From IMG/VR virus record IMGVR_UViG_3300046660_000306: DNA of 36,208 bases, one strand, 5' to 3'. Made by a program: the position numbers and the translations under genes. Each line of letters starts with the position of its first letter. The first letter of the stretch is position 1. The notes under the pieces were generated by a model that was not told the origin of the DNA, ran no database searches, and saw only the letters and a program-made list of their open reading frames with translations. The DNA is from a virus. This document shows, piece by piece, positions 27,372 through 36,208 of this stretch.

Positions 27372-28031
27372 TCAATTCTGGATCTGAACATCTACGAGCA
27401 AATCTTTCGGCAGCTCGACCTTGGAAATCAGTGCGAGGTGGTATTCCTGCCCATCCTCTTCTGACCAAAGCTTATCCTCCAGTTCGTTGAGTGCTTCTTG
27501 ATCGTTGATTGGATCAAGTGTGGCATCCATCATCTGGTAGTAATAAACCTTAAGATCCAGAGCCAGAGCCCTGGACATCAGGCGTTGCCAGAAGAATTTC
27601 CCTTCATTTGTCTGATGATTATCAGACAGGATGACGTCGTAGCGCTCAAGAATGTAATTGAAGAACACATCCTGAGCGAGGTCACGCAACACCAGCTTAT
27701 GGGCGTCAGCTTGCGAACGCCACACAAGCATCTGCGTAGCCGGACGGCAATTCAAATCATGAATGGAAGAAACCATCACGCGGTTGAAATAGACCACGGA
27801 TTTTTCTACATCATTCAGCAGTGCAACATCGAATTCATGCACGTCGGGGGTTAACGCATCAATCCTCAATAGCCTGTAGCCAGGCGGAAGCGTATGCCTC
27901 GCTGCAGCGCTGATCTCAGTGAGATTCTCCGCAGTAGCGATTCGCTGATACAGGTGTGCATTGTCCGCCGTCCGCACCAAATGGGCGAATTCTTGACGAA
28001 TTACAGCTGGTCTAACGATCAGTTTAGGCAT
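27372..28031 (-). CDS. Orphan 219-aa protein of unknown function, located between portal and cos (cargo position). A TTG start at 28040 is possible.
   Basis: Long ORF in visibly AT-richer DNA than the flanking late genes. Convergent with Q. I recognise no motif. Confidence 0.7.
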   Translation of the reverse strand: MPKLIVRPAVIRQEFAHLVRTADNAHLYQRIATAENLTEISAAARHTLPPGYRLLRIDALTPDVHEFDVALLNDVEKSVVYFNRVMVSSIHDLNCRPATQMLVWRSQADAHKLVLRDLAQDVFFNYILERYDVILSDNHQTNEGKFFWQRLMSRALALDLKVYYYQMMDATLDPINDQEALNELEDKLWSEEDGQEYHLALISKVELPKDLLVDVQIQN

Positions 28032-28110
28032 GGCAACCAAGACATATGAGTGTCTAACGAAGATAAGTACGTAGAAAACGTGTGATAACTATATCAAGAG
28101 TCGCCCACAT

Positions 28111-28150
28111 ACCACAAGGATTCACAAGACTCCACAAGGGGTCACAAGGG
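28111..28150. repeat. Four tandem helically phased 10-bp repeats, nYCACAAGrn
   Basis: accacaagga ttcacaagac tccacaaggg gtcacaaggg. CACAAG occurs at 28113, 28123, 28133 and 28143. Confidence 0.85.
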
Positions 28151-28341
28151 TTCTAAATGTTGGGGCGGCCTTGCCTCAAGAGGTTGTCCTCACTATCGCC
28201 AGCATCGCAGCCTGTCTCTGTTAAGCCGCTAGCACCTGCCTCGATACCCTTTGATCTGTTCAATACACGCAGCGTCAACGACGTTGCACCGATGTGGTGC
28301 GACAAATGAGCGATGAAGTGTCTCTTCACTTGGCGCGCGCC

Positions 28342-28360
28342 GTCGTCCCCCCGCCACGCC
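28342..28360 (-). other. Candidate cos (cohesive end) sequence
   Basis: The minus strand reads GGCGTGGCGGGGGGACGAC. Its first 12 nt equal the 186 cohesive end GGCGTGGCGGGG as I remember it (P2: GGCGAGGCGGGGAAAGCAC). Orientation relative to Q matches P2. Confidence 0.55.
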
Positions 28361-28440
28361 TGCGGGCTAAATGTGTCGTTTTTTCTGCACCCCTGCACCC
28401 AGTTCAAGCCGGCCCAGCCCGGGGCTGTGTGCGTGAATAT

Positions 28441-28450
28441 GGGGGGGGGG
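28441..28450 (+). repeat. G10 homopolymer inside a G/T-rich strand-asymmetric tract (about 28390-28610)
   Basis: atat-gggggggggg-aagcc. Further G6 runs lie at about 28523 and 28577. Confidence 0.9.
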
Positions 28451-28505
28451 AAGCCTGCGAATCCCTGCGAGGGTGGGGTAATTCTGAGAGGTGGCTCGGG
28501 AAAAG

Positions 28506-28776
28506 GGTTAGTTTTTGAAAATGGGGGGAGAGGTGCTTTGCAAGTCCCGTGTTTACTGGGTTTGAGTCCTAACTTTGGGGGGTTAGTTATGGTTAGGTTT
28601 GAGGTAAGTAGTTCGTAAAATATTGATTTATAAGGGTTTTATTTATTGGTTTTTTAACGGTTATAAAGGTTAGGAAATTACCTCTCATAACCCTAAAGCT
28701 AACCTAGGGTACCCACCGCAAAGCCGCGCAGTACAAGCCTTTCAGAGCGATTAGCAAAAAACTAACCTTCCTAACC
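28506..28776. repeat. Iteron array: GGTTAG x4 (28506, 28581, 28591, 28668; plus GGTTAT at 28659) facing CTAACC x3 (28699, 28762, 28771; plus ATAACC at 28687), around an AT-rich core (28611-28660). Candidate replication origin.
   Basis: Hexamers counted by eye. Seven exact copies in 270 bp, with the orientation switching across gtaaaatattgatttataagggttttatttattggtttttt. No credible ORF. Confidence 0.5.
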
Positions 28777-28847
28777 TCTTTCCCGTGGGTCAACATGAAA
28801 AGCCGAAAGCACCTAGGGGGTGGGTGCTGGCAAAGGTCCATCTGATG

Positions 28848-28871
28848 TTGTGCATGCGCGCTGATGCACAA
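28848..28871. repeat. Inverted repeat ttgtgcat-N8-atgcacaa
   Basis: Perfect 8-bp arms read directly. Function unknown. Confidence 0.6.
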
Positions 28872-28890
28872 ACACTCCCAGGATTACAGT

Positions 28891-28914
28891 AACTGTCACC
28901 AAAACTGTCACCAG
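28891..28914. repeat. Tandem 12-bp repeat x2 (aactgtcaccaa / aactgtcaccag), arm-site-like, 46 bp from the att-like core A
   Basis: Same copy number, unit length and offset from the tRNA 3' end as the aaacggccccca x2 repeat beside the int-proximal attP. Confidence 0.6.
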
Positions 28915-28938
28915 CTCTGTGTCGCGTCGACTTGATAC

Positions 28939-29013
28939 CGCTGGAAGCCTTAAAAATAGTGGAGCGGGTGAATGGAATTGAACCCTCGTATCAGCTTGGA
29001 AAGCTTGTGTCGG
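28939..29013 (-). other. att-like site A: a diverged 3' fragment of a tRNA-Gly (UCC-type anticodon loop, degenerate T-stem) plus about 20 nt of shared flank
   Basis: Minus strand: ...caagctTTCCAAgctgatacgagggttcaattccattcacccgctcca. About 67/75 identical to 30258-30332. Confidence 0.7.
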
Positions 29014-29025
29014 TAGTGCTCGAAT

Positions 29026-29472
29026 TTACAAAAGACGAGGTTGGTGGAAATTGGTAGGGCCTTGGTACGCCGGTGCAGGAGTAGCAGGCACGGCCATCCC
29101 ATTGATCCGGATTAACATAGGGGTCAGCGCTCTGTTCTGAAAAACAGTGTGATTTTTACCCCAGTGGACGCTGATAACCCTCGGCTGGATTGATGTTCCA
29201 GCTTTAGGGAGGCCGTTTGGAACAACAGTTGTCGTACCGCTCGCCGTATATACCAATACCCAGTCGCCAACATTCACAAAGCCATGCCCAAACCACAGCA
29301 TGTGATCTCGTATTGGAGAAGTGGTGCCATCCACCGATGGCAATCCGAGAAAGAGGCAATACTCCCCTAGATCACAGGGCGCCTTAACATAGATTGCTAT
29401 GCGTTCGAGGTTAGGCACCCCATGATCAAACACATCCACGATCTGTAGATTTTCTATGGTGCCAATGCCCAT
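29026..29472 (-). CDS. Cassette gene 2: 148-aa soluble, apparently beta-rich protein of unknown function
   Basis: The ATG overlaps the upstream stop (TAATG). AT-rich. The pattern LQIVDV...ERIAIYV...GEYCLFLG...WFGHGF.NVGDWVLVYT is faintly reminiscent of lamin-tail/immunoglobulin-like sandwich domains, but this is a weak impression only. Confidence 0.7.
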   Translation of the reverse strand: MGIGTIENLQIVDVFDHGVPNLERIAIYVKAPCDLGEYCLFLGLPSVDGTTSPIRDHMLWFGHGFVNVGDWVLVYTASGTTTVVPNGLPKAGTSIQPRVISVHWGKNHTVFQNRALTPMLIRINGMAVPATPAPAYQGPTNFHQPRLL

Positions 29473-29972
29473 TAGCGCTTACCTCGACTGGGAATGAAAT
29501 TAGTCAGTAGCAAAAATGCTGCAAAGCCGAAAATCAGATAAGACGAATTGGGATTGTTCTTATAAACGTCTACGGCTATGGAGAACAAAAACGGGCTAAC
29601 GAAAGTGCATGCTCGTTGAGCAAGACCTAGCCTAAAATTTTGGTGGGATCGTTCCTCAAACCGAACGGTTTTGAGCTTTTCTTCGTTGAGTTCAGCGAGC
29701 GCTTGGTCGAGCTTGGACTGAGTTTCTTCAGCCAGAGCTTTTGCTCGATCCCTTTCGTTTACGAGATCGTTCACCCATGCGTCGAAAATACGAGCGCTTT
29801 GGGCTCCACCAAATTTACTAGGGTTCTCGTTTGCCAGACCTCGGAACGTATTCGGCAAAAGCTCTCCTGTCAGAGGCGGTGCCGTATCCGATTGGATGTC
29901 AGGGGTTCCGACTGTTTGGGTTCCGCTAACGCCGTTATCGTTTGGGTCTGGAGCGTCGCTGATTAGATTCAT
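29472..29972 (-). CDS. Cassette gene 1: 166-aa protein with a disordered N-terminus, a coiled coil and two C-terminal TM helices
   Basis: AGGAA lies 6 nt upstream of the ATG at 29972 (another ATG at 29978). ERDRAKALAEETQSKLDQALAELNEEKLK is the coiled coil. FVSPFLFSIAVDV and YLIFGFAAFLLLTNFI are hydrophobic. Confidence 0.7.
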   Translation of the reverse strand: MNLISDAPDPNDNGVSGTQTVGTPDIQSDTAPPLTGELLPNTFRGLANENPSKFGGAQSARIFDAWVNDLVNERDRAKALAEETQSKLDQALAELNEEKLKTVRFEERSHQNFRLGLAQRACTFVSPFLFSIAVDVYKNNPNSSYLIFGFAAFLLLTNFIPSRGKR

Positions 29973-30089
29973 AGCCATTTCCTGGAATGGTCGATCGTCC
30001 TACAGAGCCTTTCGAACTGAACCGGGAGCCCTAGGTACTTCGCGCCGGTCATGGCCGAATCTTTGTTACGTCACTTATTACGTATTGCG

Positions 30090-30131: not shown

Positions 30132-30181
30132 TGGTGCCGGCACCAGGAGTCGAACCTGGGACCTACTGATTACAAGTCAGT
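30132..30181 (-). pseudogene. 3' fragment (anticodon stem to CCA) of a tRNA-Thr(UGU); the 5' half is absent
   Basis: Minus strand ACTGA-CTTGTAA-TCAGT aggtc CCAGG-TTCGACT-CCTGG TGCCGGC A CCA. The upstream sequence has no D-arm or acceptor. Confidence 0.8.
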
Positions 30182-30208
30182 AAGCTTTGCCTGGACATCC
30201 AAACATTG

Positions 30209-30232
30209 AAACGGCCCCCAAAACGGCCCCCA
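30209..30232. repeat. Tandem 12-bp repeat x2 (aaacggccccca): candidate integrase arm-type sites (P' arm)
   Basis: Perfect tandem repeat read directly, 46 bp from the tRNA-Gly 3' end. Confidence 0.65.
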
Positions 30233-30257
30233 ACTGATTGCAGTCAGGTACATGCAT

Positions 30258-30332
30258 CGCTGGAGGCCTTGAAAATAGTGGAGCGGGTGAAGGGAATCGA
30301 ACCCTCGTTATCAGCTTGGGAAGCTTGGGCGG
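30258..30332 (-). other. attP core: 3' portion of tRNA-Gly(CCC) from the anticodon loop to CCA, plus about 20 nt of flank
   Basis: Minus strand ...aagcTTCCCAAgctgataac GAGGG-TTCGATT-CCCTT CACCCGC T CCA. No 5' half. Adjacent to int. Confidence 0.8.
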
Positions 30333-30452
30333 ATGGTGTTTCAGATTGGCACCGGATGTATGCTTGTGTCCTGAAAAGCCCGCTACGACAGGGCTTTCAG
30401 GACAAGCAGCAATTTCAATGTGTTTCATCGGTTCACCCCATATTTCAGACAT

Positions 30453-30474
30453 ACAGCCCCCGGTAACAGCCCCC
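30453..30474. repeat. Direct repeat ACAGCCCCC x2 (30453-30461, 30466-30474): candidate arm-type sites (P arm)
   Basis: Shares GCCCCC with the 30209-30232 repeats and lies on the other side of the core, just before the int ATG. Confidence 0.55.
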
Positions 30475-30476
30475 AA

Positions 30477-31691
30477 ATGCTCACAGAGAAACAGATCAAG
30501 GCAATGAAGCCAGCGGAAAAGGAGTACACGGTCTCGGATGGGCGTACAGCCCGAGGTGAGGGCGTGCTGCTTCTGCGAGTGCGTCCGAACGGGACGAAGG
30601 AGTTCTACTTCCAGCGCTACAGCAGCGGCAAGAAGATCAAGAACAAGCTCGGCACCTGGCCAACGCTCGGTTTAGCTGACGCTCGGGACCTGTGCCGTGC
30701 TGAAAAGGAAGTGGTGGTTGCAGCCGGCACTTTTCAGGAAGTGATGGATGGCTACATCACCAAACTGTCGGGGGAGGGCGCAGCTTCCGTTGAGGATGTG
30801 AAGTGGTCTTTCAAGCACTACGTTTCCGAACCCTTCCCAAACCTGGTAAAGCTTCCGGCGGTTCTGATTGGACCAGGTGAAATACGGGACATCATTGCCA
30901 AGATGATCGCGAATGGTGTGACCACATACTGCAATCGACTGCGATCGCAGCTACACGCGGCTTTCCAGGTTGCCCTAGAGCAGGAGTTCAACCCTCGCAG
31001 TTATCAGAAAGACAATGTGAAGTTTGGGATCAAAAGCAACCCAGTGGCCAGCGTGCCCGTTCAAGCCGACTGGGAACAGCCAGGCGATCGGGCCTTGTCT
31101 GCAGCAGAACTTGCGCACCTCTGGCAAATGTTGCCGGAGCAATTGAGCGTGGTCACGTCAGAGCTGATCAAATTCTTGATCGCGTCAGGTGGGCAACGCC
31201 CGGAACAGCTGCTCGCAACCGAACGCCGGCACTACCTGAAAGATCACCTTATTATTCGCAACAAGAAGGGGCGAGGGGCTGAAGGAGAGCGCTCGTTGCA
31301 CGTCGTACCCTACAACAAATTGATGCGCCAGAGCCTTAAGACCATGGACGAAATCAATGCGATGAGCCTTTACCCTTTCGAGGGAAAAGTGCCGGATAGT
31401 TCGCTGCACGCAAACTCACTCTCCCGTGCAGTGACCAAGCTGTGCAGCCGACATCCAGACAAATTCAATGGCCCCTTTACCATGCGTGATTTGCGACGGA
31501 CCTGCAAAACGTTGATGGGCGCCGCAGGGCTGAACAAAGAGCTTAGAGATCGCATTCAGGGGCATGCGTTTAATGATGTATCTTCAAAGCATTATGATCG
31601 GTATGACTATTTTAAAGAAAAAAAGCACGGTCTGGATCGTTGGGCTATGTGGTTGCAGAAGAATGCTCTAGTAGCTAGTGTGAATATTTAA
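30477..31691 (+). CDS. int: Tyrosine integrase, P4/CP4-57 type (tRNA-targeting)
   Basis: N-terminus LTEKQIKAMKPAEKEYTVSDG...GLLLRVRPNGTKEFYFQRY (arm-binding domain). C-terminus MRDLRRTCKT...IQGHA...HYDRYDY (catalytic R...H-x-x-R...Y). Confidence 0.9.
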   Translation: MLTEKQIKAMKPAEKEYTVSDGRTARGEGVLLLRVRPNGTKEFYFQRYSSGKKIKNKLGTWPTLGLADARDLCRAEKEVVVAAGTFQEVMDGYITKLSGEGAASVEDVKWSFKHYVSEPFPNLVKLPAVLIGPGEIRDIIAKMIANGVTTYCNRLRSQLHAAFQVALEQEFNPRSYQKDNVKFGIKSNPVASVPVQADWEQPGDRALSAAELAHLWQMLPEQLSVVTSELIKFLIASGGQRPEQLLATERRHYLKDHLIIRNKKGRGAEGERSLHVVPYNKLMRQSLKTMDEINAMSLYPFEGKVPDSSLHANSLSRAVTKLCSRHPDKFNGPFTMRDLRRTCKTLMGAAGLNKELRDRIQGHAFNDVSSKHYDRYDYFKEKKHGLDRWAMWLQKNALVASVNI

Positions 31692-31716: not shown

Positions 31717-32598
31717 ATGGTTGCTATTGATAAAGGTGAAGATGTTGATGGTGAGGCGGTGCTGCGCCGATATATGGATTTGGCTAAGTTCGCATCTCTA
31801 TTGCAAAGTCGCTCTATTTTTCATTGTAAAATGAGTGGCTTTGATGATGGGTTGGAAGGTGGCTTAACATCGAATGATTATTTGGCTTTTACGAATGAGT
31901 TGGCTCATTTTGATTTGGCGAGGGAGCTTTGGCCGGTGGTACAAGAAAGCCAAGAGCAGCGCCAAGTAAGGCTGGATAGGGTAGAGCGTATCAGATCTAT
32001 TGTTGATCAAGAAACATTTGAAACTATATTCGGGCCAATGCTAAAAAATGACGCAGTAGAGTATTTTGAGCGGGCCAGACGGTGGGTATATGTAAGCTGC
32101 TGGAACAAGGCTCAGACAGAGTGTGCGGGTATGTGGTCGTTGTATGGGGCAGATAATTCGATCTGTATCTGTACTACTGTTCATCAGGTTGCTAAGAATT
32201 TGCAGTTTGACGGATTAGAAGTTACCAATGCAGTAATGGCTGAGGTGGATTACTTAGATCATGGGGAGGGCTATTTTGCTGATCAAAAACTTGGCGCTTT
32301 TGTTTCAAAGGCTGAGCCATTTGGTTTTGAAAAGGAGGTTAGAATAATAGCTTGGGATGGTTCAAAGAATTATGGAGAGCTGGCTCAGGAAAATCCATGC
32401 GCAGGGTTTTTTAGCCGTGCTTTAGACCTTAATTTAATAATTAATAAAATTGTCGTGTCACCAAAGGCAGATAGTTGGTTTAAAGCGGTGGTGGAAAAAC
32501 TGTGCAATGTGTATGGGTTAAATGTAGCAATCGAACACTCTTCGTTGCTTTCCCCTCGTATCTCACACTTAACTGATACGAGTCTATTTCGCAAATGA
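31717..32598 (+). CDS. DUF2971-like protein (293 aa), AT-rich cargo immediately downstream of int
   Basis: AGGGGGA RBS. N-terminal segment LRRYMDLAKFASLLQSRSIFHCKMSGFDDGLEG, and later WVYVSCWNK...ECAGMWSLYG, match my memory of DUF2971 motifs. Confidence 0.8.
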   Translation: MVAIDKGEDVDGEAVLRRYMDLAKFASLLQSRSIFHCKMSGFDDGLEGGLTSNDYLAFTNELAHFDLARELWPVVQESQEQRQVRLDRVERIRSIVDQETFETIFGPMLKNDAVEYFERARRWVYVSCWNKAQTECAGMWSLYGADNSICICTTVHQVAKNLQFDGLEVTNAVMAEVDYLDHGEGYFADQKLGAFVSKAEPFGFEKEVRIIAWDGSKNYGELAQENPCAGFFSRALDLNLIINKIVVSPKADSWFKAVVEKLCNVYGLNVAIEHSSLLSPRISHLTDTSLFRK

Positions 32599-32611: not shown

Positions 32612-32782
32612 CTATGCGGCCTCTGTGGTGGTCTGCCATGTTTCGAACGCTGATTCCCGCCAGCCAACGTGTCCGGCAGAAATCACCACGGACTTAGGAA
32701 GCCTATCTCGTTTAATCTTCAGCCAGAGTGTAGTCCGGGAAGGCGAGGTGACGCTCAATACCTCTTTCTCTCCCTGATTCAA
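32612..32782 (-). CDS. AlpA-family (MerR-like HTH) paralogue 1. N-terminally shortened or degenerate, with a possible TTG start coupled to the upstream stop (TTGA).
   Basis: GEKEVLSVTSPSRTTLWLKIKRDRLPKSVVISAGHVGWRESAFETWQ parallels the 33917-34129 protein. No clean ATG or RBS, so it may be a pseudogene. Confidence 0.45.
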   Translation of the reverse strand: MNQGEKEVLSVTSPSRTTLWLKIKRDRLPKSVVISAGHVGWRESAFETWQTTTEAA

Positions 32783-33786
32783 GTGGAGGACGGGGGGGCG
32801 TGTTTTTCCAGTATCCAGTTGGTGAAAGCTATGCGGCATATTTGCTCAATTCCAGAGTTCATATGGTAAGCCTTCCAGTCACTATCAGCCCAGCCTGTCG
32901 GTATATGTTCGCCTAGAAAGAGAGCGCCAGCATGAAGTATTTTTGAGCGCTGGCCATACGCTTTCTTATAGAACTTTATTAGCTCTTCTGAGTCTGAGCT
33001 ATACTTTGTAAGGAAGTCTGTGAATTTTCTTGTGGTGGAGTAGCGTGGCGCACTGCACTCTTTGCATTTCTCAATTTTGATTCCTTTATTGATATGGTCA
33101 ACAAGTGATTCTATTGAGGAAACAAAGCAAGCAAAAGATATGGAGGGTGATATTGGTTTTATTCTTATCGCGTTGTTGAATAAGGTTGCCGATTTCAAAA
33201 AAGCGTTTTTGTTGTCTTGGTCTAGGCTGTAGTAAGCATCCAGAATGTCGCTGAGTAAGTCCGGGACGGAAAAGTCAGAACCGACAAATCTTCCGCCAAG
33301 TCCATAAGATTCAGAAGTGTTGATTTCGTCAACGTTCGAGACTGAAGAGTTTGTAAAGTCGCTGATTTCGTGCTTGTGTTCTTGAACAAAGTAGGAGAGT
33401 TGACGCCACTCTGGTTCTGTTGCAAGGTTGGTATCTGTGCTGATGGTCCAGCTATGGTTGTCTTGTGTATAAACGAACTTTGAAAAAGAGAATACGGCAA
33501 ATAAGCTGGTTATTTCGCGAGTTATTTTTTTCTCATGGTCTTGTCTTTGTATCCAGTCGGGAACCTCTGTTTGGTCAGGCATTTTCTTGCTTGGGTCGGG
33601 GGCGAAGTTGTATTTTACTTCTAGAAGACAAGGGTGGTGCGCCTCAAGATAAGGTGCGCGAGGGAAGTTGTCAGGTGCTGGTAATATCTGAAAAATTTCC
33701 CTGTATTTGTATTTTCCAGTGACGTTGGCATTTGTGAGCATGATAAAACTTCTAAATGTTTTCGTCATAAGTTTGCCTGTTTCCAT
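32779..33786 (-). CDS. 335-aa protein with an unknown N-terminal domain and a C-terminal HEPN-like domain (R-x4-H). The start is uncertain (33786, 33768 or 33741).
   Basis: SSIESLV helix followed by YGQRSKILHAG (R284-x4-H289 of the track ORF, nt 32932-32949). AT-rich (sampled lines about 35-47% GC against more than 60% in the late genes). Confidence 0.75.
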   Translation of the reverse strand: METGKLMTKTFRSFIMLTNANVTGKYKYREIFQILPAPDNFPRAPYLEAHHPCLLEVKYNFAPDPSKKMPDQTEVPDWIQRQDHEKKITREITSLFAVFSFSKFVYTQDNHSWTISTDTNLATEPEWRQLSYFVQEHKHEISDFTNSSVSNVDEINTSESYGLGGRFVGSDFSVPDLLSDILDAYYSLDQDNKNAFLKSATLFNNAIRIKPISPSISFACFVSSIESLVDHINKGIKIEKCKECSAPRYSTTRKFTDFLTKYSSDSEELIKFYKKAYGQRSKILHAGALFLGEHIPTGWADSDWKAYHMNSGIEQICRIAFTNWILEKHAPPSST

Positions 33787-33916
33787 AGGTGTTGGCAAAG
33801 TGGTAGGTTTATTGTTTTGGGCTGGGCCACTCTAACATCCGAATAGCCACCTGTATAAACCGAGAAGCCATACATAGTGTAGCTGCAGTTTGTATCGCAT
33901 AAATAGATGAGGCCGC

Positions 33917-34129
33917 TTACGCGGCCTCGGTGGTGTTAACTTGCCAGTTTTGGGGACTGGCTTGCCATGCTTCGATAGCTGATTCCCTCCAGCCAACCCG
34001 GCCTGCGGAAATCACCACAGACTTTGGAAATCTGCCACGTTTGATCTCCCTCCATAGTGTGGTTCGGGAGAATGAGGTGACGTCCAATACCTCCTTCTCC
34101 CGCATGAACCGATCAAGCTTTCTTGTCAT
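33917..34129 (-). CDS. AlpA-family HTH protein (excisionase / transcriptional regulator type)
   Basis: REKEVLDVTSFSRTTLWREIKRGRFPKSVVISAGRVGWRESAIEAWQ. The ATG overlaps the methyltransferase stop (ATGA). Confidence 0.8.
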   Translation of the reverse strand: MTRKLDRFMREKEVLDVTSFSRTTLWREIKRGRFPKSVVISAGRVGWRESAIEAWQASPQNWQVNTTEAA

Positions 34130-35799
34130 GGGGCCTCCTGTTGAGCAACGCTCAGACCGACAGCCACAGGCCGAACCCAGATAGGCATGCTGTTGAGCAT
34201 GAACGTTTCGCCCGCGGCGGCCAACAGTAAGGTGGTGCCCATTACGTGGGCGATTGCCTCAGCAGCTTTTGGTGGTACCGCGTTGCCGATCCGTTCGCGC
34301 CAGGCCTGATCGCTCAGTCCATCCAGTTCGAACTGTTCCTCCGGATCAACCAAGCTTTGCAGCGAGGCCAGCTCCAGCGTGGTGAACGGCCGGTGCCAGG
34401 TGCCGTCGAGGCTTTCAATTACGCAGGTCAACCGGTCATTGGCTTCCGGCATGCGCGGATCAGCGACCGACCAACGCCCGTTGTCCTGCTTGGCACTCGC
34501 CGAAACGGCGCCACATTGATCGTTCCATCCAACAACGCCGTAATGGCCGCCAGTCAGGTAGGCATCACCCTTCACGCGTTTCATACCTGGGCGGGGGTCC
34601 TGCACGGCGAAGGCTCCCTGACCAGTGGTGCTGCCGGCGATGACAGTTCCTGTCGACTTATCCCACGGTGACACCAGGTACTTGCCGAACCCTTCACCAG
34701 CTCGGCGCGGGTCGGCAACGCTAAATGTTCCTTGCCCGGGCGATTTCACGCCGATGACGGCTCCGCTCGTTTCGTCCCAGCGACGAACGCCGTACTGCTG
34801 GTATTGCAGGGCGCCGGCCTTGGCGCGTGGATCTGCTACCGAGAACGCACCATTTGTTGGGCTGTTGCGGCCAGCGACCGTACCGGCGGTATCGCGCCAA
34901 TTATGCACGCCGAGATAGCCGGCTCGGTACTCGGGAACAATGACCAGATCACGCAGATAGCCGTCCTCGATCGCCAAGTCATTCAGGCTGCGCCAGTCTT
35001 TGCCGGCGGTGACAAGAGCGAGGCGAACCCATGTTTTCCATTGCAGCGCTGGTACTCGGTGCATCGGGCCGGCGGCTTCGACATCACCAGCCAGGGGCAT
35101 GCGGCCGAGAATTGAGCCGACAGACTTCAGCGTCTTTTTCTCCGGTTCGTACAGGAACGGCGGCACCTTCTCGATATGGCGGGCCACCAACAGGAAACGC
35201 TTGCGGCTCTGGGCCAGGCCACCGATGACGCCGCAATCGTGGGTGGTTTCTGCGACGGCGTAGCCATAGTGGCCCAGTAGCTTGTTGATCTGGTCCAGCA
35301 GATGGCGCCCGCGAGTGGCCAGGCGCGGAACGTTCTCGAATACCAGCAGCGGGACCGGGTCGTTCTTCCAAGCTTCGCACATCAGCCAGATACAGCGCAG
35401 CGTCAGTTCGTTCAGGGCCTGGTACTTCGGCGTCATGCTCATTGTTTCGGACAGCAGGCCCGAGGCGCCTTTGCAAGGGCTGGAAATGAACACAGCGTCA
35501 GGCCGCTCGTTGTTAGCAGCGCGGCGCAGGTCTTCGGCGCTCGCTTCGCTCCAGCCTGCCGGCGGCTCTTTGCCGTGGAAGCGGGTGTACTGGTCACGGT
35601 TGAACAGGTCCATCAGCGTGCCGCGCACACCGGACAGTCGTTCGAAATCGCGCAGCCCGGCCGGGTCAACGTCAACTCCGCCGATGCACTGCCATTCGGC
35701 TTGGATGTTGCCCACGATTGGCTTGGCACTGTTGAAACCCTTGGCGCCGCCACCGAGGCCGCAGCACATATGAAAGTGTTTGAGCGTGCGCTTAAGCAT
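34126..35799 (-). CDS. DNA (cytosine-5) methyltransferase with a four-fold repeated target-recognition region (557 aa from the ATG at 35799)
   Basis: Motif I HMCCGLGGG, IV SSPCKGAS, VI LVFENVP, VIII QSRKR, X GNAVPP. No adjacent restriction endonuclease. Confidence 0.85.
   Translation of the reverse strand: MLKRTLKHFHMCCGLGGGAKGFNSAKPIVGNIQAEWQCIGGVDVDPAGLRDFERLSGVRGTLMDLFNRDQYTRFHGKEPPAGWSEASAEDLRRAANNERPDAVFISSPCKGASGLLSETMSMTPKYQALNELTLRCIWLMCEAWKNDPVPLLVFENVPRLATRGRHLLDQINKLLGHYGYAVAETTHDCGVIGGLAQSRKRFLLVARHIEKVPPFLYEPEKKTLKSVGSILGRMPLAGDVEAAGPMHRVPALQWKTWVRLALVTAGKDWRSLNDLAIEDGYLRDLVIVPEYRAGYLGVHNWRDTAGTVAGRNSPTNGAFSVADPRAKAGALQYQQYGVRRWDETSGAVIGVKSPGQGTFSVADPRRAGEGFGKYLVSPWDKSTGTVIAGSTTGQGAFAVQDPRPGMKRVKGDAYLTGGHYGVVGWNDQCGAVSASAKQDNGRWSVADPRMPEANDRLTCVIESLDGTWHRPFTTLELASLQSLVDPEEQFELDGLSDQAWRERIGNAVPPKAAEAIAHVMGTTLLLAAAGETFMLNSMPIWVRPVAVGLSVAQQEAP
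34453..34917 (-). repeat. Four tandem ~30-aa protein repeats, Y(G/L)V..W.(D/N)..G(A/T)V...........G.(F/W)(S/A)V(A/Q)DPR, within the methyltransferase variable region
   Basis: YLGVHNWRDTAGTVAGRNSPTNGAFSVADPR / YGVRRWDETSGAVIGVKSPGQGTFSVADPR / YLVSPWDKSTGTVIAGSTTGQGAFAVQDPR / YGVVGWNDQCGAVSASAKQDNGRWSVADPR. Confidence 0.85.
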
Positions 35800-36049
35800 A
35801 ACGACGCCCCTTCGCTTGTTTGGATGCTGCTTTTTCTGCCAGGAGGGCAGCCCACTCCGAGGACTTGCGTTGCTGTCTGAGACGACTGCAGTTTTGGTGC
35901 TTACGTGTGGAGCGAGCTTTTCCGCAGATATCGCAGATGCTGGGTAGGTCAAGTCGATGGCTAGCCATTGTGGGGCGAGTTCTAGAGCCGGGAGTGGCTG
36001 TGTTCGTGATAGCCTCGGCGTTGCCATCGTTGTGGGTTTGAGCTTGCAT
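35792..36049 (-). CDS. 85-aa basic protein with a C-x2-C-x8-H-x2-C knuckle, translationally coupled to the methyltransferase
   Basis: GGAGAGAACC RBS. CDICGKARSTRKHQNC. Its stop overlaps the MTase start (ATGCTTAA). Confidence 0.6.
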   Translation of the reverse strand: MQAQTHNDGNAEAITNTATPGSRTRPTMASHRLDLPSICDICGKARSTRKHQNCSRLRQQRKSSEWAALLAEKAASKQAKGRRYA

Positions 36050-36098
36050 GGTTCTCTCCTTTCAGTGGTGGTCGGTGTCGAGGGGTTGCAGCCCCTCG
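36047..36098 (-). repeat. Leader repeat copy 2: hairpin cgagggg-ttgcag-cccctcg (36079-36098) plus the conserved block accactgaaaggagagaaccATGca
   Basis: See 174-213. The hairpin spans the circular junction. Confidence 0.7.
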
Positions 36099-36208
36099 GC
36101 ACCACTTCCCGTTATTCCGTTACTTGGCGAGCCAGATCAGTACGTCTGGTACCTGTAGGGCAGTGACAGCGATCAATGCGACCGTCGCGATTGTGCTGAG
36201 CAGGTTGT
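36082..36208. repeat. Terminal exact direct repeat, copy 2 (duplicate of 1-127)
   Basis: The same 127 nt as the window start. The unit length is therefore 36,081 bp. Confidence 0.9.

What the first reader, a model, noticed from the sequence alone, without database searches (positions are those of the whole stretch)
32779..33786. HEPN-like (R-x4-H) single-protein candidate abortive-infection effector with an unknown N-terminal domain
The C-terminal ~120 aa show the HEPN signature: a helix with a conserved acidic residue (SSIESLV) followed by YGQRSKILHAG, that is R-x4-H. HEPN domains are the RNase effectors of many Abi, TA and CRISPR-accessory systems.

The N-terminal ~200 aa match nothing I recognise and could be a sensor.

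The gene is the most AT-rich stretch of the window and is bracketed by two diverged AlpA gene copies. It has no counterpart in the P2 gene set.
Basis: partly seen in the sequence, partly recalled or inferred. Interest (0 to 1): 0.7.

Follow-up and report, generated by a model that had tools for sequence, protein, structure and literature searches.

The report
Unnamed single-gene HEPN-type phage-defence candidate
This gene encodes a two-part protein, an unknown front half fused to a likely RNA-cutting (HEPN) back half, from a large, unnamed family that sits among anti-phage genes in mobile DNA; it is a credible but untested suicide-type phage-defence gene.

Summary
A minus-strand ORF (32779..33798; probable start ATG 33768, 329 aa) contains SSIESLV and RSKILH.

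One R-x4-H is expected by chance about 0.4 times in such a protein. In 105 homologues at 20-35% identity, however, R and H are the only invariant columns. E226, C241, C244, S281 and Y277 are nearly invariant.

A confident AlphaFold model (pLDDT 94) has the canonical HEPN topology. The acidic residue lies in helix 2, a CxxC hairpin plus a helix is inserted between helices 2 and 3, and R-x4-H lies at the end of helix 3. Nine of the 12 best PDB fold matches are HEPN proteins, but none is significant on its own (E >= 0.19).

No Pfam, NCBIfam, PADLOC, PHROG or PDB sequence model matches the window protein. The profile still finds 1051 clusters, so the family is large and undescribed.

About ten independent homologue loci lie in defence islands or cargo slots of mobile elements: Pycsar, CBASS, restriction-modification, PD-T4-5, a phage satellite and prophages. 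No partner gene is conserved.

Verdict: a new family of stand-alone HEPN abortive-infection candidates with a novel N-terminal sensor-like domain. RNase activity, trigger and phenotype are all untested.

The gene lies in an integrase/AlpA island next to the P2-like prophage, not inside it.

The parts
32779..33768 (-). Coding sequence of the candidate defence protein (329 aa plus stop). The open frame continues upstream to ATG 33786 and TTG 33798.
   Evidence: The start is chosen from the homologue alignment and the upstream sequence.
33259..33768 (-). N-terminal alpha/beta domain (residues 7-176 in 335-aa numbering). It has no known relatives. Conserved G24, R/K27, Y28, D30, F32, Q33, P36, P52, E56, W113, W127, Y132, F144, Y160 and Y161 suggest a pocket. 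Proposed sensor.
   Evidence: The AF2 model is at pLDDT 94. Conservation. No Pfam, PADLOC or PDB match.
32794..33258 (-). C-terminal HEPN-type helical domain (residues 177-331). H1 is 190-209 and H2 is 214-232. The insert is 233-266. H3 is 267-286 and H4 is 301-329.
   Evidence: The topology criteria come from PMC3710099.
32932..32949 (-). RSKILH, the R-x4-H motif at the end of helix 3. R and H are invariant in 105 homologues, and S after R is present in 97 of 105.
33100..33120 (-). SSIESLV in helix 2. The E (E226) is conserved in 104 of 105 homologues and is the HEPN helix-2 acidic residue.
33055..33066 (-). CKEC, a CxxC knuckle on a beta-hairpin inserted between helices 2 and 3. Both Cys are conserved in 103 of 105 homologues. 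They are the only two conserved Cys, so this is possibly half of an inter-subunit Zn site.
33909..33928 (-). GC-rich hairpin followed by a T-rich tail, overlapping the alpA1 stop codon. This terminator-like site suggests the HEPN gene is a separate transcription unit. A similar hairpin ends alpA2.
33917..34129 (-). alpA1, an intact AlpA-family regulator or excisionase (70 aa).
   Evidence: PF05930, E 1e-13
32612..32839 (-). alpA2, a 5'-truncated AlpA copy. It shares a 142-nt direct repeat (77% identity) with alpA1, spaced 1329 bp apart. Its annotated start lies inside the HEPN gene's 3' end in another frame.
31717..32598 (+). Neighbouring cargo gene (293 aa, GC 0.424), related to the PADLOC candidate PDC-S31 and to phrog_34615.
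30420..31691 (+). Tyrosine integrase of the island, with Arm-DNA-bind_3 and Phage_int_M domains.
30135..30326 (-). Two att remnants. The first is a tRNA-Thr(UGU) copy lacking its D-arm (30135-30194). The second is a 3' tRNA-Gly-like fragment (about 30280-30326). They mark the junction between the P2-like prophage and the island.
   Evidence: The tRNA-Gly fragment was read by eye only.
34126..36105 (-). C5 cytosine DNA methyltransferase (659 aa), overlapping alpA1 by 4 bp.

Best explanation
The gene encodes a stand-alone, two-domain defence protein. Its C-terminal half is a HEPN-fold, metal-independent endoribonuclease. Catalysis would use R280 and H285, assisted by E226, S281, Y277 and the acidic residue 293 (335-aa numbering). 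Its N-terminal half is a previously undescribed alpha/beta domain that probably acts as the infection sensor.

By analogy with the characterised solo HEPN systems HepS, ApeA and DARNA, the protein is probably made constitutively and held as an inactive HEPN dimer or higher oligomer. A phage-derived cue, either a protein or a small nucleotide ligand, would bind the N-terminal domain or the interface between the two domains. That would open the composite active site. The enzyme would then cut host RNA, most likely tRNA anticodon loops, stop translation and abort the infection.

The conserved CxxC hairpin inserted in the HEPN domain may hold a structural Zn ion, possibly shared between two subunits.

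The gene travels as cargo in the variable slot between integrase and alpA of an integrative, satellite-like island that is integrated in tandem with a P2-like prophage.

Shown here: the motif invariance, the predicted fold and topology, the absence of a conserved partner gene, and the defence-island and mobile-element context.

Inferred: RNase activity, oligomerisation, sensing, the RNA target and the abortive phenotype.
For: Conservation:
- R280 and H285 are the only invariant columns among 105 homologues at 20-35% identity.
- E226 is conserved in 104/105, S281 in 97/105, Y277 in 103/105 and C241/C244 in 103/105. Position 293 is always D or E.

Fold:
- The AF2 model built on the deep alignment has pLDDT 94.1 and pTM 0.90.
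- Its C-terminal helices reproduce the HEPN definition of PMC3710099: four up-down helices, an acidic residue in helix 2, an insert between helices 2 and 3, R-x4-6-H at the end of helix 3 running into the H3-H4 loop, and a polar residue after R.
- Foldseek against the PDB puts HEPN proteins in 9 of the top 12 places: 2hsb (prob 0.97, TM 0.58 normalised to the target), 5yep, 6tug, 7bxo, 3o10 and 5yjc. 7ae2, 1ylm, 8xeh and AbiV (9bj6) appear further down.

Family size:
- The profile finds 1051 clusters at 50% identity with E<=1e-3, and 635 with E<=1e-10. Most of the 150 best listed hits match over nearly the full length.

Context of homologues:
- Directly after Pycsar PycTM and PycC.
- After PDC-M65A/B in P. 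aeruginosa.
- Between an Mrr-type nuclease and PD-T4-5/Abi_2 plus PDC-S06 on a Pantoea plasmid.
- After Mrr and an MmeI-type restriction-modification enzyme.
- In an island with SIR2, AbiEii, CBASS and a helicase.
- Near a type I restriction-modification system.
- As the last gene of a TerS-AlpA-primase-integrase satellite.
- Next to cI in a lambdoid prophage.
- In prophage arms.

No partner:
- No partner gene is conserved.
- There is no tandem-repeat RNA antitoxin.

Precedent:
- HepS, ApeA and DARNA are single HEPN proteins that cut tRNA anticodon loops on activation (PMC13043305; 10.64898/2026.01.26.701840; 10.64898/2026.02.22.705581).
Against: No sequence model of any HEPN family matches:
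- Pfam, PADLOC and NCBIfam give nothing for the window protein.
- 105 relatives scanned against Pfam and PADLOC gave no HEPN-family match.

Other weaknesses:
- hhalign against an Abi_2 alignment aligned only the 22-residue motif region, at probability 0.2% and E 0.31.
- Every individual Foldseek match has E >= 0.19.
- The shallow-alignment model gave no HEPN matches at all.
- The acidic residue is not in the common E-x3-[KR] form.
- Coordinates of the model were not available, so I could not check that E226 lies next to R280/H285 in space.
- One distant homologue sits alone among housekeeping genes.
- There are no experimental data for any family member.
Confidence: 0.62

Rival explanations
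1. It is the toxin of a toxin-antitoxin or addiction module that stabilises the island. The antitoxin would be the adjacent AlpA-like protein, an unannotated small ORF, or an RNA.
For: Many HEPN proteins are TA toxins, for example HepT-MNT and the AbiF RNA antitoxin (from the text found). In the window the gene is flanked by small HTH genes, and alpA2 overlaps its 3' end.
Against: Neither AlpA nor any other small neighbour is conserved across homologue loci. The upstream and downstream small ORFs are unrelated to one another (contexts). alpA2 is a truncated remnant. There are no tandem repeats of the kind that encode type III antitoxin RNAs. The fused, conserved N-terminal domain of about 170 aa fits self-regulation better.
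Confidence: 0.1
2. It is the effector half of a Dazbog-like system. In this reading it is a DzbB homologue that needs a DUF262 partner (DzbA) encoded elsewhere.
For: Seven of 105 family members hit the PADLOC DzbB model at E about 4e-4. The matches are co-linear, covering profile positions 258-317 of 341 and the stretch from CxxC to R-x4-H. The model length is similar to the family's.
Against: The window protein itself does not hit DzbB even at E<=1. The matches cover only about 50 residues. No DUF262 gene is adjacent in any of the roughly 14 loci examined, including the locus of P0033, which does hit DzbB. That locus is a satellite with the gene as solo cargo.
Confidence: 0.08
3. It is a catalytic HEPN RNase used by the mobile element for its own ends rather than for host-protective abortive infection. 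Examples would be satellite interference with a helper phage, or RNA processing and regulation.
For: Several homologues are cargo of satellite-like elements with AlpA, a primase and an integrase. The window island is integrated in tandem with a P2-like prophage that could be its helper.
Against: Many homologues are in chromosomal or plasmid defence islands with no satellite. Helper interference is itself a form of phage defence, so this rival overlaps with the main explanation.
Confidence: 0.12
4. The helical domain is not a nuclease. The conserved R/H pair and the CxxC serve ligand or nucleic-acid binding, as in non-catalytic HEPN-like or other four-helix bundles.
For: No sequence profile links it to catalytic HEPN families. 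Four-helix bundles recur by convergence, and non-HEPN helical proteins also appear among the fold matches.
Against: Absolute invariance of exactly R and H at x4 spacing is hard to explain otherwise. So are the polar residue after R, the helix-2 acidic residue and the motif's position at the end of helix 3.
Confidence: 0.08

Closest known systems
HepS (HEPN Solo defence element, Gifsy-1 prophage; PMC13043305)
   Same: It is a single-gene, prophage- or mobile-element-borne HEPN protein with an R-x4-H site and no conserved partner. It sits in an accessory slot of a lambdoid prophage; one homologue of the present family sits next to cI. HepS works by abortive infection through anticodon nuclease activity.
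   Different: HepS is under 250 aa and consists essentially of the HEPN domain, with R100/H105. The present protein has an extra conserved N-terminal alpha/beta domain of about 170 aa and a CxxC hairpin insert. There is no detectable sequence similarity, and HepS is not among the top 50 fold matches.
ApeA (Gao et al. 2020; 10.64898/2026.01.26.701840)
   Same: It is a single protein with non-catalytic N-terminal domain(s) followed by a C-terminal HEPN domain that carries family-specific inserts. [quoted passage not shown] Some ApeA homologues hold a structural Zn at the dimer interface. It is a tRNA anticodon nuclease.
   Different: ApeA is about twice as long, and its N-terminal and Mid domains are mostly helical. 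The N-domain here is a beta-sheet plus one long helix. The PADLOC and Pfam libraries gave no match for the window protein, and 105 relatives gave no ApeA-family match.
DARNA / PD-T7-3 (10.64898/2026.02.22.705581)
   Same: It is a single-protein HEPN abortive-infection tRNase with a fused sensor domain.
   Different: The domain order is reversed, with HEPN at the N-terminus, and the sensor is an all-helical ssDNA-binding domain. There is no sequence match.
DzbB of the Dazbog system (PADLOC model PDLC03836)
   Same: This is the only described defence-protein model that any family member hits. The match is co-linear over the CxxC-to-R-x4-H segment and the overall lengths are similar.
   Different: The match is weak (E about 4e-4, about 50 aa, 7 of 105 members), and the window protein itself does not match. 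Dazbog is a two-gene system with a DUF262 partner (PMC10952713), and no such partner is present at any locus examined.
Abi_2 / AbiD-AbiF / PD-T4-5 HEPN proteins
   Same: They are stand-alone Abi proteins of similar size with an R-N-x3-H site. hhalign places RSKIxH on RNRLxH in register. One sits two genes from a homologue on the Pantoea plasmid.
   Different: The profile-profile probability is 0.2%, which is not significant. The architecture differs and Abi_2 has no CxxC insert.

Membership tests
HEPN superfamily (definition of Anantharaman et al. 2013, PMC3710099) | A conserved R-x4-6-H motif with a polar residue after R | tested here: met
   R and H are invariant in 105 of 105 homologues. 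The residue after R is S in 97 and C in 8.
HEPN superfamily (definition of Anantharaman et al. 2013, PMC3710099) | A four-helix up-down bundle, with the motif at the end of helix 3 running into the H3-H4 loop | tested here: met
   In the AF2 model (pLDDT 94), H1 is 190-209, H2 is 214-232, H3 is 267-286 with R280..H285 at its end, the loop is 287-300 and H4 is 301-329. Criteria. This is a predicted model, not an experimental structure.
HEPN superfamily (definition of Anantharaman et al. 2013, PMC3710099) | A conserved acidic residue in helix 2, often as E-x3-[KR] | tested here: met
   E226 lies in helix 2 and is E in 104 of 105 and D in 1. The x3-[KR] part is absent. Spatial proximity to R/H could not be measured.
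HEPN superfamily (definition of Anantharaman et al. 2013, PMC3710099) | [quoted passage not shown] | tested here: met
   Residues 233-266 form a CxxC beta-hairpin plus one helix.
HEPN superfamily (definition of Anantharaman et al. 2013, PMC3710099) | Significant structural similarity to solved HEPN domains | tested here: inconclusive
   Nine of the top 12 Foldseek PDB matches are HEPN proteins. The best is 2hsb (prob 0.97, TM 0.58 normalised to the target), but all E-values are >= 0.19. The residue-level superposition of R/H was not available.
HEPN superfamily (definition of Anantharaman et al. 2013, PMC3710099) | Significant profile similarity to a recognised HEPN family | tested here: not met
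   No Pfam hit for the protein or for 105 relatives. hhalign against Abi_2 gave probability 0.2%. Only one HEPN family could be tested profile against profile, and there was no HHpred search against Pfam or PDB.
HEPN superfamily (definition of Anantharaman et al. 2013, PMC3710099) | Metal-independent endoRNase activity leaving 2',3'-cyclic phosphate ends; dimerisation forming a composite site | not testable with these tools
   This needs biochemistry or a multimer model.
ApeA | A match to the ApeA HEPN or ApeA N-terminal-domain models | tested here: not met
   No ApeA-family match from PADLOC or Pfam for the window protein or for 105 relatives.
Dazbog (DzbA + DzbB) | A DzbB-family protein | tested here: inconclusive
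   The window protein has no hit at E<=1. Seven of 105 relatives hit at E about 4e-4 over about 50 aa.
Dazbog (DzbA + DzbB) | An adjacent DUF262 partner (DzbA) | tested here: not met
   No DUF262 gene is next to the gene in the window or in any homologue locus examined.
Type II or III toxin-antitoxin module | A conserved adjacent antitoxin gene or repeat RNA | tested here: not met
   Neighbouring small ORFs are unrelated and there are no tandem repeats.
Anti-phage defence gene (operational definition) | Recurrent location in defence islands or cargo hotspots of mobile elements | tested here: met
   About 10 of 12 independent contexts qualify: Pycsar, CBASS/SIR2/AbiEii, restriction-modification, PD-T4-5, PDC-M65, a satellite and prophages.
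Anti-phage defence gene (operational definition) | Protection against phage in an infection assay | not testable with these tools
   No experimental data were found for any member.

The most novel reading that the evidence does not exclude
This is the founding example of a large, unnamed family of solo HEPN immune nucleases (more than 1000 clusters at 50% identity). It has a new sensor fold that recognises a so far unknown infection cue. Its CxxC half-site pairs across the HEPN dimer, so that Zn-mediated dimerisation gates the active site. The same CxxC-HEPN module would be the unrecognised effector domain of Dazbog DzbB, which would give that system a mechanism.
Probability: 0.3. Interest if true: 0.65.

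Novelty: new variant of a known kind. Interest (0 to 1): 0.5.

Why it matters
Solo HEPN proteins such as HepS, ApeA and DARNA have recently become models for how one polypeptide both senses infection and kills the cell. Each known family uses a different sensor and a different trigger.

This family has no model in Pfam, NCBIfam, PADLOC or PHROGs, yet it has over a thousand sequence clusters. It repeatedly occupies defence islands, prophages, satellites and plasmids. It would therefore add a widespread, compact (about 330 aa) system with a new sensor domain to the catalogue and improve annotation of defence hotspots.

The weak link to DzbB could also give a first mechanistic handle on Dazbog.

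It is not a conceptual surprise. The kind of system is known, and the function here is predicted, not shown.

Tried and rejected
- Direct family scans of the protein (Pfam, PADLOC, NCBIfam, PHROGs) and a sequence search of the PDB gave only noise.
- A PDB search with the 105-sequence profile also gave noise.
- The first AF2 model, built from 22 close homologues, was mediocre (pLDDT 69). It gave no meaningful fold matches and was replaced by the deep-alignment model.
- Foldseek against viral predicted structures (BFVD) found nothing.
- tblastn against sequenced phages found nothing. Against plasmids it found one distant hit, in Pantoea.
- With the close alignment it found no relative in GTDB species representatives and two in IMG/VR.
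- The word-indexed homologue search with the profile added almost no distant members and no informative names. Cluster look-up gave only 'hypothetical protein'.
- hhalign against Abi_2 aligned only the motif.
- AlpA as a functional partner or antitoxin was considered and rejected because it is not conserved and the downstream copy is a remnant.
- An RNA antitoxin was rejected because there are no repeats.
- Membership of the P2 prophage was rejected because att remnants and a separate integrase lie between them.
Full report
**1. What is in the sequence**

The finding's coordinates hold a real minus-strand ORF, 32779..33798 (339 aa from a TTG).
- 22 close homologues mostly begin at the next ATG (33768, MTKTF...), which has a weak AGG 9 nt upstream. 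The likely product is therefore 329 aa.
- I use the 335-aa numbering of the alignments below.
- SSIESLV (33100-33120), CKEC (33055-33066) and RSKILH (32932-32949) are present as stated.
- GC is 0.428 against 0.579 for the window. The adjacent 293-aa gene is just as AT-rich at 0.424, so 'the most AT-rich stretch' is a tie.

**2. Is the motif more than chance?**

One R-x4-H is expected 0.39 times in a protein of this composition, so the motif in one sequence is not evidence. Conservation is.
- The close family has 29 proteins, the few named ones from Pseudomonas, at 50-100% identity. All of the 22 aligned keep R280 and H285.
- A profile search of 1.84 billion cluster representatives found 1051 proteins at E<=1e-3, 635 at E<=1e-10 and 66 at E<=1e-30. 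Most of the 150 best hits listed match over nearly the whole length.
- In an alignment of 105 of these, at 20-35% identity to the window protein, the only invariant columns are R280 and H285.
- Nearly invariant positions are:
  - E226 (104 E, 1 D);
  - C241 and C244 (103 each);
  - Y277 (103);
  - S281 (97 S, 8 C);
  - position 293 (always D or E);
  - N323 and W324;
  - in the N-terminal half, P36, P52 and W113, plus a set of aromatic and polar residues.

**3. Fold**
- A model from the 22 close sequences was poor (pLDDT 69) and matched nothing.
- With the 105-sequence alignment, AlphaFold2 gave pLDDT 94.1 and pTM 0.90.
- Residues 7-176 form an alpha/beta domain: strands 8-18, 25-28, 32-36 and 51-61; a long helix 77-99; then further strands.
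- Residues 177-331 are helical:
  - H1 is 190-209.
  - H2 is 214-232 and carries E226.
  - An insert follows, made of a beta-hairpin carrying CxxC (about 240-247) and a helix (251-262).
  - H3 is 267-286, with R280..H285 at its C-terminal end.
  - The loop is 287-300, and H4 is 301-329.
- The reference analysis of the superfamily (PMC3710099) defines HEPN as follows:
  - a four-helix up-down bundle;
  - frequent inserts between helices 2 and 3;
  - a polar residue after R;
  - a second conserved acidic residue in helix 2.
- Every one of these features is present.
- Foldseek against the PDB gave no match with E<=1e-3. However, 9 of the 12 best matches are HEPN proteins:
  - AF_0298 (2hsb): prob 0.97, TM 0.58 normalised to the target;
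  - the HepT-type toxin SO_3166 (5yep);
  - Csm6 (6tug, 5yjc);
  - HEPN-MNT (7bxo);
  - sacsin HEPN (3o10).
- 7ae2, 1ylm, 8xeh and AbiV (9bj6) appear lower down.
- That enrichment is far beyond chance, although no single match is significant.
- The N-terminal domain attracted no match in the PDB or BFVD.

**4. Sequence-level membership**
- No model in Pfam, NCBIfam, PADLOC or PHROGs matches the protein.
- Scanning all 105 relatives against Pfam and PADLOC gave no HEPN family.
- A subset of members about 400 aa long showed Zn-ribbon-type hits, probably in their N-terminal extension of about 90 aa; the matched regions were not shown, so that placement is inferred.
- I built an alignment of a bona fide HEPN family, Abi_2/PD-T4-5, taken from a neighbour of the Pantoea homologue. 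I compared the two profiles with hhalign.
- The only alignment placed RSKIxH on RNRLxH in register, but at probability 0.2%.
- Membership of the HEPN superfamily therefore rests on motif, topology and fold enrichment, not on profile similarity. I put the HEPN assignment at about 0.8.

**5. A weak link to Dazbog**
- Seven of the 105 relatives hit the PADLOC DzbB model at E about 4e-4.
- For two of them I mapped the match. It covers DzbB profile positions 258-317 of 341. In the window protein that corresponds to residues 241-299, the stretch from the CxxC knuckle through R-x4-H.
- The window protein itself does not hit DzbB.
- No DUF262 partner (the other Dazbog gene, PMC10952713) is adjacent at any locus, including that of a relative that does hit DzbB.
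- I read this as a possible shared CxxC-HEPN module, not as membership of Dazbog.

**6. Surroundings in the window**
- Bases 1 to about 30000 are a P2-like prophage, with a P2-family capsid, gpP-type terminase, portal, sheath, baseplate J and gpD.
- At 30135-30194 (-) there is a tRNA-Thr(UGU) copy lacking its D-arm. Rfam scores it at 33 bits and ARAGORN does not call it.
- At about 30280-30326 (-) there is a fragment resembling the 3' end of tRNA-Gly. I read this one by eye only.
- I interpret both as att remnants of two elements integrated in tandem.
- The second element reads, from left to right:
  - a tyrosine integrase (30420-31691, +);
  - a 293-aa gene related to the PADLOC candidate PDC-S31 and to phrog_34615 (31717-32598, +);
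  - alpA2 (-);
  - the HEPN gene (-);
  - alpA1 (-);
  - a 659-aa C5 DNA methyltransferase (-).
- The two alpA copies share a 142-nt direct repeat at 77% identity, spaced 1329 bp apart. Each ends in the same GC-rich hairpin.
- alpA2 has lost its own 5' end. Its annotated first ~24 codons are an alternative-frame reading of the HEPN gene's 3' end. The same spurious ORF start is called in an unrelated locus.
- The HEPN cassette thus looks like cargo recombined into the variable slot between alpA and int.
- 'No counterpart in P2' is correct but follows simply from the gene being in a different element.

**7. Context of homologues**

The gene appears in many unrelated settings with no conserved neighbour.

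| Setting of the homologue |
|---|
| Directly after a Pycsar system (PycTM, PycC) |
| After PDC-M65A/B in a P. aeruginosa islet present in at least 24 contigs read (57 index blocks) |
| Between an Mrr-type nuclease and PD-T4-5 plus PDC-S06, beside VapBC, on a Pantoea plasmid |
| After Mrr and an MmeI-type enzyme |
| In an island with SIR2, AbiEii, CBASS (CD-NTase + Cap15) and a helicase |
| Near a type I restriction-modification system, HNH and FRG genes |
| Last gene of a TerS-AlpA-primase-integrase satellite, abutting pheST |
| At the end of an AlpA/AAA_25 island |
| Next to cI in a lambdoid P. mosselii prophage |
| In or beside prophage arms in two IMG/VR contigs, one of them P2-like |
| Alone among housekeeping genes (one distant homologue) |

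Small flanking ORFs are unrelated to one another, and there are no tandem repeats that could encode an RNA antitoxin. This is the signature of a self-contained defence gene.

**8. Mechanism**

Shown: an invariant R/H catalytic-type pair in a predicted HEPN fold, a fused conserved N-terminal domain, a solo gene, and defence and mobile-element context.

Inferred by analogy with HepS (PMC13043305), ApeA (10.64898/2026.01.26.701840) and DARNA (10.64898/2026.02.22.705581):
- The protein forms HEPN dimers or higher oligomers that are kept inactive.
- A phage cue binds the N-terminal domain or the pocket between the domains. The conserved aromatic cluster W113, W127, Y132, F144, Y160 and Y161 is a candidate pocket.
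- The composite site opens and RNA is cut, most likely tRNA anticodon loops, which aborts the infection.
- The two conserved cysteines are the only conserved Cys, so a Cys4 Zn site shared between two subunits is possible. This is speculation, prompted by the interface Zn seen in some ApeA proteins.

My confidence:
- about 0.8 that it is a HEPN-type RNase domain;
- about 0.65 that it is a phage-defence gene;
- about 0.35 that tRNA is the target.

**9. Novelty and verdict**

Single-protein HEPN abortive-infection systems are a known kind. This protein belongs to none of the described families.
- It has a new N-terminal domain and a distinctive CxxC insert.
- It represents a large family without any database model.
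- I found no paper describing it, but my literature searches covered related systems, not this family by name or accession.

I rate it a new variant of a known kind, of moderate interest. It is a strong, well-delimited candidate for experimental testing rather than a conceptual surprise.

Noticed in passing
window 31717-32598 (+): A 293-aa gene, as AT-rich as the target (GC 0.424). It matches the PADLOC candidate single-gene system PDC-S31 (E 8e-12) and phrog_34615 (E 6e-27), and has no Pfam match. It is a second likely defence cargo gene directly after the integrase.
   Followed up: partly
window 30135-30194 (-) and about 30280-30326 (-): A tRNA-Thr(UGU) copy lacking its D-arm (Rfam 33 bits; not called by ARAGORN), and a fragment resembling the 3' end of tRNA-Gly. 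They look like att remnants showing that the P2-like prophage and the integrase/AlpA island are integrated in tandem. A 12-nt tandem repeat, AAACGGCCCCCA x2, lies between them at 30209-30233.
   Followed up: partly
window 32612-32839 (-): The downstream alpA copy is a 5'-truncated remnant. Homology to alpA1 begins at codon ~25, and the annotated start is an alternative-frame ATG inside the HEPN gene. The same alt-frame ORF start (MPHS.HQLDT) is called in locus L003 with an unrelated continuation, so it is probably a gene-calling artefact.
   Followed up: yes
window 34126-36105 (-): A 659-aa C5 cytosine methyltransferase with an N-terminal extension of about 100 aa and a long insert between the conserved MTase blocks. 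It overlaps alpA1 by 4 bp, which suggests translational coupling. No cognate restriction gene is visible before the window ends.
   Followed up: no
window 27372-29978: An accessory region of lower GC (0.496) lies between the portal gene of the P2-like prophage and the att remnant. It holds three ORFs (222, 148 and 168 aa) with no Pfam match. This is the position where P2-like phages carry morons or defence genes.
   Followed up: no
L008 5465-6512: The 86%-identical homologue in an IMG/VR P2-like contig is split into two overlapping ORFs (275 and 108 aa). This is a frameshift, caused either by pseudogenisation or by an assembly error.
   Followed up: no
relatives P0033, P0060 (and 5 others of alignment A2): These relatives give weak, co-linear hits to the PADLOC DzbB model over the CxxC-to-R-x4-H segment. 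Dazbog's second protein may therefore carry the same CxxC-HEPN module.
   Followed up: partly
alignment A2, members of about 390-436 aa (e.g. P0098, P0120, P0145): About a fifth of the aligned relatives carry an extra N-terminal extension of about 90 aa. A few members gave weak Pfam hits to Zn-ribbon-type models (DZR, DZR_2, Prok-RING_1, DUF7129); the matched regions were not shown, so placing them in the extension is a guess. One such member sits in a SIR2/AbiEii/CBASS island (L023).
   Followed up: partly
L001 4526-7866: In P. aeruginosa the homologue directly follows a PDC-M65A/B gene pair (E 3e-43 and 9e-113). The islet lies between a GGDEF gene and the tail-specific protease gene and is present in many isolates. 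It may be a recurrent defence hotspot.
   Followed up: no
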